Below the pieces are notes generated by a model. It saw only the letters and a program-made list of their open reading frames with translations. It was not told the DNA's origin and searched no databases. Made by a program: the position numbers and the translations under genes. Positions 38,491-55,500 of a stretch of DNA of 64,000 bases are shown here, one piece after another. Source of the DNA: Eledone cirrhosa (taxonomy: Eukaryota); NCBI GenBank assembly GCA_964016885.1, contig OZ024746.1, positions 29,512,001-29,576,000 of the forward strand. The letters are read 5' to 3'. How positions within the stretch are numbered: position 1 is the stretch's first letter; every line of letters starts with the position of its first letter.

Positions 38491-41223
38491 TAGGAGTAGT
38501 TTTCCTCATTGAAGATGCATGAGCCAATGAGAAAACACCAACACAAATGAGATTCTTGTGAGAGAGGAAAATAGTTCAATCATAGAATATCTAAGGTGAC
38601 GTGCTCAGTTTGAAATACTTGAGTTATAATGAGGGATTCAGGAGTAGAACTTTCATTTTATACAAATGAGAAGTTCACTCTTAGTAAGACTACTTTAAAC
38701 CAAAGGAATTTCATATTTTCCTATTGAAAATAATGTATAGTCATTGAGTATAACTGTTTGTAATTGTTTACACGTTATTCTCACCGCTATGAGATATCTT
38801 TCGAATGTATAGAGACATGACCTTGTGGTTAGGTTGTTTGGATCATAATAGTAAGGTCATGATCTCGTTTTCCGGTGAGCTTAGTCTGCTGTAAAAATGA
38901 GTTGAATATGTTATTCAATTGTTCGGATTTCTCACAGAATGTGTCGCACTGAATAAGTAAATTTCAATATTAAGATGTCTCGTTGAACACACAGCAGGAA
39001 CTCTCGTCGTTTAAATCGACAAAGGTCCCTCAAAAACCTTCAGGTGTGAACAGAAAATAGTTATCAATGAATCGTATTTTTATCTCGATGTATTGAGCCA
39101 GCGATAAATACATAGTTTTAAGGGTACAGAATATTAACCCTATATCCATCTCTCATCTGACGAGCTCAGACCGGAGAAATGAGTAGGTGGAAAACTACAT
39201 AGTCGTTGACCTCAGCGAGTTATGTATCATGTAGATGAAAATAAACGAGAATACAACTGCATATGGCCTTCGATGTATTTAATACTATATATATATATAC
39301 ATATATATATATTTTATATATATATATATATATATATATATATATATATATATATATATGTATATATATACTATTTCTCATCCTCTATCTCCACCTCTCT
39401 TTATATATTTATTTCTTTATTTACCTATTCCGTGCTATATTTCCCTTCACTTCTATCATCATTTAGACATGTACATAGATATATAACTTGTACTGCGTTA
39501 AAGTGGTATACATAAAGACAAGAGAAAATGTGTACATGTAAATAATAAGAGCAATTATTTAGCATCATCACCATCAATGATAAATAAGTAGTTAATATCT
39601 ACTTTACAATATCCTAAGAACATAACTATCATACCTTTCAACTTTTTTTTCACTGGGAAAGAAAACTTAAATCTTCAAAATGGAAGCCATTAATAAAACG
39701 TATTATTTTTTTCTTTTATCCTCCATTTTGTATTTTGACATAACCGTGGGCGTGTTTACTTTATAATTCCTTATATACGTATTATCACAATTCTTTTCAC
39801 GATATACATTGGATGAAAAAGAAGTGTATATAGCTACCTATATATATATATATAATATGAGTGTGTAATTTTGCTTCATGTGTTTTGTTTTCTTTCATTT
39901 ATTAACTATATATATATGTATATATAATATAATATATATAATGTATATATATATATATATATATATATATATATATATATATATATATATATATATATAT
40001 ATATATAAATATATATTTCCACAACATTATTTTTAGTGAATTTTTGTTTCATCAAACTCGATCACATATTTGTTGTGTGTAATTATATATCTTAGTCATG
40101 ACATTCATTCACATAAGAGAACAAACAACACATACAAATACATATACATTATAAACATACAAATACATTACAAGCACATCTACAATATTCAGTACAAACA
40201 TACATATATTCATACAATATATGAAATATATACATACAATATGTACACGACATACTTCGACAGAACACACATATGATGTAATAGGAATAATGATAGGGGA
40301 TGTATGTATCTGTGTATGCCTGTATATATTTTGGGAGATGATTTTAAATTCATGCCGATGCGTCTCAATACTTATATATGCATCTTTATGTATGTATATA
40401 GATAGAAGTATAGACAGATGTATTATGCATATATAAATATTACACATAACTATAAAATTATCAATATGTGTACAGAAACACATTTTATATGTATATGTGC
40501 GCCTATTTTTTTGGTGTTGTTTAAATATGTACTCCGATGAGACATTTCGACTCAACAAAATATCCTGTATATATATATATATATATATATATATATATTT
40601 ATATATATATATATATATTTACATATATATATATATATATATATACATTTGTATATATATATATATATATATATATATATATATATATACATACAAATGT
40701 ATTAATATTTCATATATATATATATATTTATGTATTAATACATTTGTCTATATATATATATATATATATTTATACATACATACATTCACATACACATAAC
40801 CCAGAAAAAGACGACACATTGCACTCTTCTGATTACATTTCAGAAGATCTCCAAGGCAATTTCCGCAGTAATTACGTGTAATTTATTAACATTCACTTTG
40901 TTTCATAGTGATGATATTTACATTAAAATTATACATCAGACACAATGGAGTCCACAACAAATTCTGTTCACACTACCTGTATATATTTTCAGATATGTTT
41001 ATGGTCTTTTTGGTTTTACTTTTCAAATTTTACACCGGATGAGAAAAAATCGGTTTCTAACCCCAAAACAATTTCTCTCATATTGTGTGTGTACGTACTT
41101 AAGTACGTATGAATTATATATATATATATAGTGGTGGAACACTGGAAGGTAATATCCGTAGTGGTAGAGCACTCAGTCCAAGGGACGAGTTAGATAGAAG
41201 TGGTTACACAACAGTTAGTTCAC

Positions 41224-41271
41224 CATACCGAGAACAATTGTTTCACCTTCGCGGATCTTCAACTCGGGATG
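41224..41271 (-). ncRNA. Hammerhead ribozyme family P, 3' pLTR copy (C3 changed to U)
   Basis: CCGAG-TTGAAGA-TCCGCGAAGGT-GAAA-CAATTG-TT-CTCGG. Confidence 0.7.
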
Positions 41272-41451
41272 TATATGGTTATAGGAACAGGAAGAACAAC
41301 CGTACGAACGCGCATGCGCAGAAACTCGGTCACTTCACACAGGCAATAGTAGACTGCGTGCGGGGGGTGTAAGGGAGATAACTGCGAAAGTCCGGAAAGT
41401 CTTTTGGTTGGAAATAAAATAAAAAAATTTTAAAATAAAATTACAAACAAT

Positions 41452-52370: not shown

Positions 52371-52502
52371 ATATATATATATATATATATATATATATAT
52401 ATATATAGTAATAATAATAAATTTGAAGACTAAAATCCAAAGAGGGCTCGATAAGGATAAATATATATCAAATATATAAGAACCGTAGAGCAAATATTTA
52501 TT

Positions 52503-52553
52503 AATTTCAGAAGATCCCGTTAAGGGTGAAAGCACCGATTCTTTGCTTAAACT
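52503..52553 (+). ncRNA. Hammerhead-fold motif with CAGAAGA core (family Q)
   Basis: AATTT-CAGAAGA-TCCCGTTAAGGGT-GAAA-GCA(CCGATTCTT)TGC-TT-AAACT. Confidence 0.6.
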
Positions 52554-55500
52554 TTAATCTGTTATTTTAATAAATATATATATATATATATATATAATTG
52601 GTTATGGATTATTAAAGCATCCGTATGCGGTAGGCCGTATGAGCACTAGATGCTCTCATAGAGGAGAGTATGATACCACAGAAAAAAAGAGAATCACTGT
52701 TGCGACGAATGGAATTTATTGGACATATTACAATTGTTATATATATATATATATATATATATATATATATATATATATATATATATATATATATATATAT
52801 ATATAACATGTACTCACCTCAAACTGCCAACATATATATGTGTATGAAAATAAACCGCCGTTTCAAATGAATTTGAAATCATGTATGCTTGGCAATCATG
52901 CTCATCAACCGTCAATGCACCATATCGTAAAGTTTAAAGAACCCGGTATACAATTCATTCCAGCGAAGCGAAAGGAGATCAAATCACACACACTCTTCAA
53001 CTAAATGCTTGAAAAATAGCGGTTAAGTCGTAAATACAGATTTTAAACACACACACACTCACTCACACATACACATACACATACAGTGTAAACAGTTCTA
53101 AAATAGGCAAATTACCTCAGAATATATATTATAGAAGCCAAAGATGTTGCACCATGTGACTGAACCTGAAATCATATATATATGTGTGTGTAGATATATA
53201 TTCCACTATTTCACATTTTACGCTAAATTATTTCTCATTAAACAGTTAAAAACCTACCCTCAACAGCCGAATTAAGTGGTTAATATAACATTACGCCACC
53301 CTGCTTTTAACAGTATGCCACCCCATCTACCCTATATATATCAGGAAATGTCAGAAGGATGTTCTCTCGTTCATACGTCTTTAGGGTCTCCGATTGCCGA
53401 AATATAAAGTGAAATAATGTTACTGCGTTAACATTCGTTCCTCTTTTGTGTGTGTGTGTGAATGGGGGGGGGGGTTGCTTTTACACTTTTGCTTCGAATT
53501 CTCACTGTTGAGTCTACTTCAATCTTTTTAAAAGTAAATAATGTAAGAATATAAAAATAAATATAAAATGAACATTTAATAAATTGACAGGAATTCACTT
53601 AAATATGATATGGTAATATCATTTTAGGAACAGAGCTTAAATACTGAATTAATTCGAATAATAATGATTTTTACAGAAATGGAAAATTTAACGTAACATT
53701 TCACATGCATCAGCAACAACAAAGACAAATAAATAACTAAGTAAATAAAACTATTACAGCAGCAACAGCAGCAGCAACAACAACAACAGTAAATACAACA
53801 ATTATTCTATAAAAATCCTCAACTGCAACAAAACATGCTATCATATTATGATTGCTGTTATCGTTATTATTGAAATTATTTATATTATTACTTTTATGGT
53901 TGATGATAATAATAATAATTATTATTATTTCTACTATTTTTAATAATAATAATAATAATAATAATAATATAAAGAAGAAGAAAAAGAAGACAAAAACAGA
54001 AGAAAAGAGAAGGGGGAATGTAGAAAAAGAGGAAGAAAGTGGTAACAATGGAAATATGATATATATGAAAGCGGATTTATATGTAAAAAAATCGATTTCT
54101 GTTCGAATGTTAAGAGCACGTTAAAGGCACTGTGTAATAGGCAATGATTTAAGATTTGAAAAGCAATGTGAGTTTACATCCGTCTTGCCTAAAATTGAAC
54201 TTCCCCACCACCATTTAATGGAAATTGGTATTAACGCGGAAACACTTAGTGATTTAATATGCTAAAGACATATTTCTGAATTTCAAATACAGCTCTTTAA
54301 ATGTTAAATAGACACCCCTTATGTAACAATGATTTGGCATATGAAAAATGGCTCGTCCAAGCTTTACACCCATTAGCCTGTTTTGTAGCTGGCATAAGTG
54401 AGGGGGGGGGGATATGTATACTATGCTAATGAACAATTCTACATACATATATACATACAATTATACTTATACTTTTATTGCTTTACTGTTTTCAGTCATT
54501 AGACAATGACTAATAATTGGACATCGCGTCCAACTTATTTCTTAAAGTCTGCTATGTAGTTTATCGTTCTCTATTCATCGAAGTACTAAGCTAGGGGACA
54601 TAAACAAACAGTATGCGTACACAGAGACGCTCACACACCTGTATGTATACGAAGGGCTTTGCACAGTTTCAGAATACCAAATCATACAAAAAAGTAATTA
54701 CCGTTATATACGAAGACACTTTCATAAGTTGGGATTTCTTCAGGAATGACACAACTAAACCAGAGATCAGCTCGACTAGTTTACATGGAGGTGGCTCGTC
54801 CGCAAACAGGATGTCTCTCTATATTAGCTGTTTTATTTTGTAGACACTGCCAGCAAATATATTGACATGCATGTGTTTCAAGTCAACGCATGTTACTCAT
54901 AATCTTGACAAGAATATATGCAGTGGAAGTGTACAGTAATGAATATTATTTACGTTTGTGCGATGCAAGCAACATTTTATTTGTACTGGTGCCTCGTTAA
55001 AATGTACCCGGTACACTCTGAAAGTGATGTACGTTCGAACAGTACCAACGAAAGTCCGAGAAAAACCGTTTAGTGTTACCAAAGACATGACACTCTCTAG
55101 TGCTGATGCCATGACAAATAATTATCTAGTACTTTCTTTAAAGGGTTTGATGCTGGGAAGGCCGGTCAGAGCTAAATGTTATGCAAAAATTGGAAGGTTT
55201 CTGGTCATACATGGTTCTCCGTCCTGTCTAGGAGGATATCGGTCCGAATAAGAACTAACTTAGTCTGAAACCACCTGTCCAACACATGGCAACACGGAGA
55301 GCAGGTATAATAGGCTGATGGTGAAAACACACACACACTCACACTCACATACACACATTCACATACATTCAAGCACTCACTTATATTCACAAACACACTC
55401 TTATACACACACTCACACTTACATTCACACACTCACACACATTCCCAAAATCACTCGCACACACTCACACTCACTTGCGCGCATTCACTCATACACACTC

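What the first reader, a model, noticed from the sequence alone, without database searches (positions are those of the whole stretch)
41130..52570. Hammerhead ribozyme nest: at least four distinct HHR families, 14 copies on both strands in ~11 kb
Seen: CTGANGA...stem II...GAAA...NUH motifs with pairing stem I in family P (41224-, 43624+), family A (43836-, 45189-, 47888-, 47993+, 48561+), family H (46384+, 47055-, 47255+, 48886-, 49136+) and family Q (50414+, 52503+). All lie in cassettes bounded by (TA)n. Established: PLE pseudo-LTRs carry type-I HHRs, often with short palindromic stem III that work as dimers. Inference: this locus is a self-reinforcing landing pad where several PLE lineages and non-autonomous derivatives inserted into each other's TA tracts. 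Any read-through transcript from either strand would be cut into defined fragments.
Basis: partly seen in the sequence, partly recalled or inferred. Interest (0 to 1): 0.85.

Follow-up and report, generated by a model that had tools for sequence, protein, structure and literature searches.

The report
Penelope retrotransposon pile-up in TA repeats
The 17 hammerhead-like motifs are the ends of about ten truncated Penelope-like retrotransposon copies that likely inserted into each other's (TA)n repeats, a mostly ordinary pile-up, except that one family carries its own TA targets and another spread to over 21,000 copies with a non-standard ribozyme core of untested activity.

Summary
The nest is real, and larger than reported. 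It holds 17 hammerhead-homologous motifs in 11.4 kb, against a mean of 1.4 per 10 kb elsewhere in the genome. Only 9 pass a strict canonical-fold scan.

The motifs are pseudo-LTR ends of about ten 5'-truncated, mostly inverted-pair Penelope-like insertions. Families P, A, H and Q have Hydra-clade ORF motifs. Hydra-clade (TA)n targeting, hammerheads and inverted copies are published.

Two features are new here. First, family A has a 1.9-kb 3' UTR with nine (TA)n tracts and an inner hammerhead fixed at GUG, predicted not to cleave. Other elements insert into these tracts (10 of 41 spacers elsewhere; three times here), so A seeds nests. Second, family Q has the core CAGAAGA in 21,659 exact matches against 103 canonical.

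The claim that read-through RNA is cut into defined fragments is not supported. No RNA data were available.

The parts
41131..43134 (-). Family P Hydra-clade PLE, 5'-truncated main arm with frameshifted RT and GIY-YIG fragments (41466-43130), long tail (about 102 nt), hammerhead with C3U (core at 41262)
   Evidence: (94.5% to L048)
43134..43704 (+). Family P inverted 5'-truncated arm, short tail (36 nt), intact hammerhead (core 43633, GUU, predicted cut after 43662); arms 557/570 identical
43727..46202 (-). Family A Hydra-clade PLE main arm: EN fragment 45626-46204, inner hammerhead A2 (core 45240, GUG), 1.3-kb microsatellite spacer with (TA)n tracts, outer hammerhead (core 43887, G12A), long tail
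46200..46585 (+). Family H long-tail arm with intact hammerhead (core 46397, AUA, predicted cut after 46446); partner arm missing, ends in the first TA tract of the inverted A arm
46586..48657 (+). Family A inverted arm (spacer plus outer hammerhead, core 48567, GUA, predicted cut after 48612), short tail; interrupted by two insertions in its own TA tracts; 196/200 and 312/321 identical to the main arm in two tested segments
46922..47375 (.). Family H inverted pair (cores 47116- and 47268+), 453-bp insertion in an A-spacer TA tract
47831..48157 (.). Family A inverted pair (cores 47939- and 47999+), 345-bp insertion in an A-spacer TA tract; near-perfect hairpin
48847..49320 (.). H subfamily (H2) inverted pair (cores 48947- and 49149+)
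49922..50480 (+). Family Q 3' fragment with short 5' inversion; hammerhead-like motif with core CAGAAGA (50419), CUU triplet
50688..51382 (-).
51379..52369 (.).
52409..52596 (.). Family Q inverted pair: tail on minus, motif with core CAGAAGA (52508+) on plus

Best explanation
The nest is a pile-up of about ten truncated Penelope-like retrotransposon copies whose pseudo-LTRs each carry a type-I hammerhead motif, and it likely grew because these elements target (TA)n and one of them, family A, brought a cluster of TA tracts with it.

Shown: family identity and ORF linkage; inverted pairs with one long-tail and one short-tail arm; A's internal tracts; independent secondary insertions in those tracts at other loci.

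Inferred: the GIY-YIG endonuclease nicks (TA)n and reverse transcription starts at one of two sites downstream of the hammerhead, giving a 5'-truncated arm plus an inverted arm. A inserted with a long inverted arm. H, H and A then hit three different tracts of that arm. A deletion at the centre of the A palindrome removed H's partner arm. P, H2, Q (twice), R2 and R used neighbouring tracts.

The hammerheads are passengers here. A read-through RNA would mainly form long hairpins, not a ladder of cleavage products.
For: Hydra-clade motifs in ORFs elsewhere in the genome: A, 714 aa, with RWK, DKT, CxCx5C, CxxC, CxH; H and Q likewise; P. These match the clade definition, which includes (TA)n insertion and hammerheads.

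Tail lengths are bimodal: P 36 and 102 nt; A 36-49 (45 of 92) and 103-122 (36 of 92); H 48-57 (8 of 22) and 137-142 (12 of 22). This fits the two RT start sites shown in vitro for a PLE.

A unit length 4289 bp with 9 tracts of (TA)5 or longer; P, H, Q, R units have 0, 1, 0, 0 (one unit each).

Non-A motifs average 2.4 per 10 kb around 40 A copies against 1.275 in 80 spaced stretches, Mann-Whitney p=3e-4. 10 of 41 A spacers hold a foreign hammerhead. In 12 spacers picked for length or content, 13 of 14 foreign inserts sit in TA tracts, with differing cargo and breakpoints. Motif count tracks TA-tract count, Spearman 0.53.

Inverted arms fold at about -160 to -253 kcal/mol, 86-93% paired.
Against: This nest is far denser than any sampled stretch: 16 per 10 kb against a maximum of 5 in 98 spaced stretches and 11 in 40 A-anchored ones. 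A negative-binomial extrapolation gives a tail near 3e-5, so TA targeting alone may not explain its size.

TA tracts are also duplicated or exposed by insertions, so the correlation is not causal proof. I did not show a higher per-tract insertion rate in A spacers than in background tracts. L194 and L195 look like duplicates within the A-anchored set.

The order of events and the central deletion are inferred from one assembly. The A/H junction at 46202 was not bridged by any listed contig. Three intact motifs (46397+, 47268+, 48567+) stay mostly unpaired to outside sequence in 1-kb nascent folds.
Confidence: 0.85

Rival explanations
1. The nest acts as a functional RNA-processing cassette: read-through transcripts from either strand are cut by hammerhead dimers into defined fragments.
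For: Nine motifs keep a canonical core and fold. Same-strand, same-family pairs exist (H 46397+, 47268+, 49149+; A 47999+, 48567+). The palindromic stem III of P, A and H is predicted to pair only as a homoduplex, -3.2 to -8.2 kcal/mol.
Against: 6 of the 9 intact motifs pair 45 of 46 to 66 of 66 nucleotides with antisense arms in nascent-RNA folds. All three intact minus-strand motifs are among them. Published PLE hammerheads cleave weakly even as dimers, or only with protein and with no cut-site read ends in RNA-seq. No host gene was evident in the nest.
Confidence: 0.07
2. The nest is mostly local fold-back or segmental duplication of one or two insertions, or an assembly artefact of a palindrome-rich region.
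For: 43797-45037 is repeated inverted within 46604-48657. H copies 46397+ and 47116- are 237/239 identical. No listed contig piece bridged the 46202 junction (most pieces were not shown).
Against: Arms differ by 2-4% and have different tail lengths. The same main-plus-inverted layout occurs in A copies on other contigs, such as L046. Six families with 30-52% ORF identity, or none detectable for R, cannot come from local copying. Families P, A and H contain many near-identical dispersed copies, so high identity does not imply local origin.
Confidence: 0.05
3. The cassettes are non-autonomous retrozyme-like elements amplified through circular RNAs.
For: Most cassettes are short and non-coding. 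A 310-bp tandem hammerhead array exists elsewhere in this genome (L070).
Against: The copies here are inverted, not head-to-tail 150-300 bp tandems. They are colinear with the 3' ends of ORF-bearing units.
Confidence: 0.03

Closest known systems
Hydra clade of Penelope-like elements (Craig et al. 2021, PMC8557442), including Hydra-1_Obim
   Same: C-terminal GIY-YIG endonuclease; RWK, DKT, CxCx5C, CxxC and CxH motifs; (TA)n insertion; hammerheads near the 3' end with short palindromic stem III and often a U-U pair closing stem II; inverted 5'-truncated copies.
   Different: Listed Hydra families are generally under 3 kb and their tabulated hammerheads all have CUGANGA. Family A here is 4.3 kb with two hammerheads and internal TA tracts; Q has CAGAAGA; H and Q units are 3.9 and 3.3 kb.
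Minimal type-I hammerheads of metazoan PLEs (Cervera and de la Pena 2014, PMC4209133)
   Same: Mostly solo or opposite-strand pairs 100-700 bp apart from truncated PLEs; extra unpaired base before stem II (R, R2); predicted dimer cleavage.
   Different: The highest counts in that Results section are about 4,000-9,000 per genome, with another descriptor. Sampling here gives 67 canonical-core strict hits in 980 kb, about 2e5 per genome by extrapolation.
Poseidon element of Anolis (Frangieh et al. 2024, PMC11167929)
   Same: Two RT start sites produce the optional tail; preference for AT-rich DNA; hammerhead mutants still insert in vitro.
   Different: Different clade. Tail length differences here are about 65-90 nt in P, A and H, against 30-40 bp cited there.
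Non-LTR retrozymes (PMC7761336; bioRxiv 10.64898/2026.07.22.740005)
   Same: Type-I hammerheads related to PLE pseudo-LTRs.
   Different: Retrozymes are direct tandem repeats without ORFs. This nest is made of inverted fragments of coding elements.

Membership tests
Hydra-clade PLE (P, A, H, Q) | RT followed by C-terminal GIY-YIG endonuclease in one ORF | tested here: met
   714-aa ORF in L044; L094, L268 and L263; window fragments. Pfam gave no hit on four window fragments.
Hydra-clade PLE (P, A, H, Q) | RWK and DKT motifs | tested here: met
   A: RWK and SDKT; P, H, Q: RWR and SDKT
Hydra-clade PLE (P, A, H, Q) | CxCx5C linker, CxxC and CxH, no CCHH | tested here: met
   Motif scan for H and Q; read from the A and P ORFs (the P ORF ends before CxH); absence of CCHH read by eye
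Hydra-clade PLE (P, A, H, Q) | Insertion into (TA)n | tested here: met
   Tails end at TA runs in most copies; inserts in A-spacer tracts
Hydra-clade PLE (P, A, H, Q) | Generally shorter than 3 kb | tested here: not met
   P 2580 bp fits; A 4289, H 3890 and Q 3259 bp do not (one tandem unit each)
Hydra-clade PLE (P, A, H, Q) | Phylogenetic placement with published Hydra RTs | not tested
   No tree with reference sequences was built
Type-I hammerhead ribozyme | CUGANGA and GAAA core | tested here: inconclusive
   Met in 13 of 17 motifs; not met in P 41262-, A 43887- and both Q copies
Type-I hammerhead ribozyme | NUH triplet with stems I-III | tested here: inconclusive
   9 of 17 pass the strict scan; R2 and Q 50419+ pass on stems with a relaxed scan; A2 has GUG; R has weak stem I; covariation in the H-like set
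Type-I hammerhead ribozyme | Match to Rfam hammerhead models | tested here: not met
   None at the gathering threshold or E<=10
Type-I hammerhead ribozyme | Self-cleavage | not testable with these tools
   No assay; no RNA run listed
Neptune/Nematis-type PLE (R) | Cx2-5CxxC linker and CCHH in the endonuclease | tested here: inconclusive
   The L244 ORF shows a Cx4CxxC linker, two cysteines within GIY-YIG and downstream histidines, read by eye; no BLASTP hit to A, H, P or Q; clade not resolved
Naiad PLE | N-terminal endonuclease, no canonical hammerhead | tested here: not met
   Endonuclease is C-terminal and hammerheads are present
Non-LTR retrozyme | Head-to-tail non-coding repeats, each with a hammerhead | tested here: not met
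   Inverted pairs colinear with coding units; no such tandem array in the nest

The most novel reading that the evidence does not exclude
Family Q's CAGAAGA core is an active natural U4A hammerhead variant, perhaps tuned low or protein-dependent, carried by over 21,000 copies. Family A is a former nest turned mobile unit: it silenced its inner ribozyme (GUG), extended its 3' end to a downstream hammerhead, and now spreads its own landing pads, building hairpin-forming nests across a genome with about 200,000 hammerheads.
Probability: 0.2. Interest if true: 0.7.

Novelty: new variant of a known kind. Interest (0 to 1): 0.4.

Why it matters
The role of hammerheads in Penelope-like elements is open: they may process tandem precursors or simply ride along. 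This genome offers a natural test. Family Q, whose only core is U4A, reached at least 21,659 copies. Family A keeps one canonical motif and one fixed at GUG. P and H keep canonical cores. Comparing cleavage across the four would show whether catalysis is needed for spread.

A retrotransposon that carries its own target tracts is a simple route to TE nests and long inverted repeats. The sampled density suggests one of the richest known genomic sources of hammerhead variants. The nest itself is not evidence of a new RNA-processing system.

Tried and rejected
Rfam at the gathering threshold (whole window) and at E<=10 (41000-52800): no hammerhead; only hairpin-driven miRNA-family matches below threshold. 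Pfam on four ORF fragments: no hit.

Genome DNA searches with the H motif and with the R2 5' part returned nothing. The tool skips very common words, so this is uninformative. H copies were found by sampling instead. R2's ORF remains unlocated.

Sequencing runs: no RNA holder listed, which is no evidence on expression. Contigs of four runs covered all 30 bins of 45470-46580, but no listed piece bridged 46202, so the artefact test is inconclusive.

Single-motif MFE folds did not give the full hammerhead fold. This is expected for loop-less stem III and was not used as evidence.

Literature searches for a natural U4A core, for octopus + Penelope + hammerhead and for nested TA insertion showed no such report in their listings. 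Lunse et al. 2017 and Arkhipova et al. 2017 were not held and may list such variants. Earlier scan findings: none.

Rejected: canonical-core Q as a separate subfamily. There are 103 matches (0.5%), and several of those inspected sit at truncation or inversion junctions. Rejected: inheritance of one nested cargo in A spacers, since breakpoints and cargo differ.
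Full report
OBSERVATION. The region holds all 14 motifs named. None appeared in 200 shuffles of the region. Homology to the family motifs raises the count to 17, with none elsewhere in the window. Three motifs were missed (R2 50882-, R 51618-, R 52085+). Rfam and Pfam were silent. A 16-member H-like alignment is 95.1% paired, with two-sided changes at 12 of 18 pairs, above all 500 shuffles and all slid controls. 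Its members were pre-selected by pairing, so this supports the fold but is not independent.

WHAT THE PIECES ARE. The window lies in a 3.0-Gb genome; the host was not identified. RT and GIY-YIG fragments lie at 41466-43130 and 45626-46204 on the minus strand, and an EN end at 51879-52084. Full or near-full units elsewhere tie each motif to a coding element: A (L044, 714 aa), P (L048), H (L069, L094), Q (L263, L268), R (L243, L244). A, P, H and Q show the Hydra-clade motifs as defined in Craig et al. 2021 (section 11 and supplement part 2 read). That paper reports (TA)n insertion and hammerheads for the clade and lists one cephalopod member. Their ORFs are 30-52% identical to each other; R gives no BLASTP hit to them and looks Neptune- or Nematis-like by eye. 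R2 has no ORF located, but 133 bp of it are 72% similar to R. The families are young and abundant: top hits at 99-100% for P and A and 1,361 exact matches to a 26-mer of A's outer motif.

ANATOMY. Self-comparison and mapping onto full units give about ten events: P (41131-43704); a large A insertion (main arm 43727-46202, inverted arm 46586-48657); an H arm (46200-46585); an H pair (46922-47375); an A pair (47831-48157); an H2 pair (48847-49320); Q (49922-50480); R2 (50688-51382); R (51379-52369); and a Q pair (52409-52596). The P, A, H and Q pairs have one long-tail and one short-tail arm. Tail lengths are bimodal across fetched copies (the set includes targeted and partly overlapping loci). 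This matches the two RT start sites shown for an Anolis PLE (parts 1-2 of 4 read) and the inverted 5'-truncated copies described for PLEs (passages). The lone H arm joins A's truncation point directly and ends in the first tract of A's inverted arm. I infer a deletion at the palindrome centre; this is not shown.

FAMILY A CARRIES ITS OWN TARGETS. In 24 of 24 top-scoring copies the inner motif has GUG, and 23 of 24 show the downstream spacer within the fetched flank. The first 100 listed of 264 exact matches with a free position all have G. G at position 17 is not cleavable by the NUH rule (established knowledge, recalled). One A unit has nine TA tracts; single units of P, H, Q and R have 0, 1, 0 and 0. 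Among 40 A-anchored 10-kb loci, one search listed 42 spacers. Dropping one that spans a tandem leaves 41, of which 10 contain a foreign hammerhead. Aligning 12 spacers chosen for length or content showed 14 foreign inserts in 11 of them, 13 at TA tracts, with different cargo and ends, and one internal duplication. Non-A motifs are about twice as dense around A as in spaced samples (2.4 against 1.275 per 10 kb, p=3e-4), though two loci look duplicated. So 'self-reinforcing landing pad' holds in a plain sense: more TA tracts, more hits. A higher per-tract rate was not shown.

BACKGROUND. In 98 evenly spaced 10-kb stretches there were 76 relaxed-strict folds (67 with a CU core, 9 with CA) and a mean of 1.37 motifs of any grade, maximum 5. 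This extrapolates to about 2e5 hammerheads in the genome, against 4,000-9,000 as the top counts in Cervera and de la Pena 2014 (Results read; different descriptor). The nest, with 16 in 10 kb, is an extreme case. One A-anchored locus reached 11. A rough negative-binomial tail predicts around nine such 10-kb bins in the genome.

FAMILY Q. An exact 29-mer with CAGAAGA has 21,659 matches; the same pattern with CTGAAGA has 103. The one complete unit examined has no second core. Its stems are intact: 5-bp stem I, a 5-bp stem III hairpin, CUU triplet. Perreault et al. 2011 (passages) note a natural U4C variant with much reduced in vitro activity that still works in a viroid. My searches listed no natural U4A, but two key papers on PLE hammerhead variants could not be read. 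Either U4A retains some activity or Q spread without cleavage. The second reading fits the report that hammerhead mutants still insert in vitro, and I favour it at about 3 to 1.

READ-THROUGH CLAIM. In an inverted pair with 3' ends pointing outward, a transcript from either strand makes the antisense arm first. Folding nascent prefixes (1 kb upstream; also 2.6 kb for P) put 6 of the 9 intact motifs almost wholly into long duplexes: 43633+ (at 2.6 kb only), 47999+, 49149+, 47116-, 47939-, 48947-. The other three stay mostly free of outside pairing in these folds. Stem III of P, A and H is predicted to form only between two copies, and the likely partners are among those sequestered. The expected product is hairpin dsRNA. 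This is a prediction from equilibrium folding, with no RNA data.

VERDICT. A real, unusually dense but explicable nest of known-type retrotransposons. The hammerheads are pseudo-LTR passengers. What is new lies in the families, not the locus: A's self-supplied targets with an inner motif predicted dead, Q's family-wide U4A core, and the high genome-wide hammerhead load. Papers seen: PMC8557442 (passages, section 11, supplement search and part 2 of 59), PMC11167929 (parts 1-2 of 4), PMC4209133 (outline, Results), PMC3088659 and PMC7761336 (passages), bioRxiv 10.64898/2026.07.22.740005 (part 1 of 5; supplements closed). Unseen supplements may bear on the novelty of U4A.

Noticed in passing
L070:8400-9850: Four hammerheads in a 310-bp head-to-tail array plus one inverted copy; looks like a non-LTR retrozyme array.
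   Followed up: no
L093:5250-6150, L128:6480-7050, L268:4650-5280: Direct pairs of hammerheads 467-538 bp apart with a 6-nt palindromic stem III; further families not present in the window.
   Followed up: no
L173:700-8900: A second nest around family A with 11 motifs in 10 kb and four inserts in A-spacer TA tracts.
   Followed up: partly
L194 and L195: Two loci 4.2 Mb apart on C2 with the same array of A2 and seven Q motifs; segmental duplicate or haplotype duplicate.
   Followed up: no
window 1-85, 2492-2686, 9252-9430, 12341-12522, 16080-16280, 18700-18892, 22408-22578, 25690-25893, 27494-27901, 61990-62182: About ten copies of a ~190-bp SINE-like repeat; the pair at 27494-27901 is a 96.6% palindrome.
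   Followed up: no
window 32931-33305, 35502-35648, 35964-36147: Further short palindromes without hammerhead motifs.
   Followed up: no
window 33653-33877: 101-bp tandem duplicate overlapping a weak tRNA-like match on minus (30.8 bits); possibly a SINE head or mitochondrial insert.
   Followed up: no
window 56771-57376 and 57583-59106: Low-complexity open frames: a 197-aa proline-rich frame on plus and an 18-bp-unit repeat open for 350-376 aa on both strands; possible exon of a repetitive protein or just a minisatellite.
   Followed up: no
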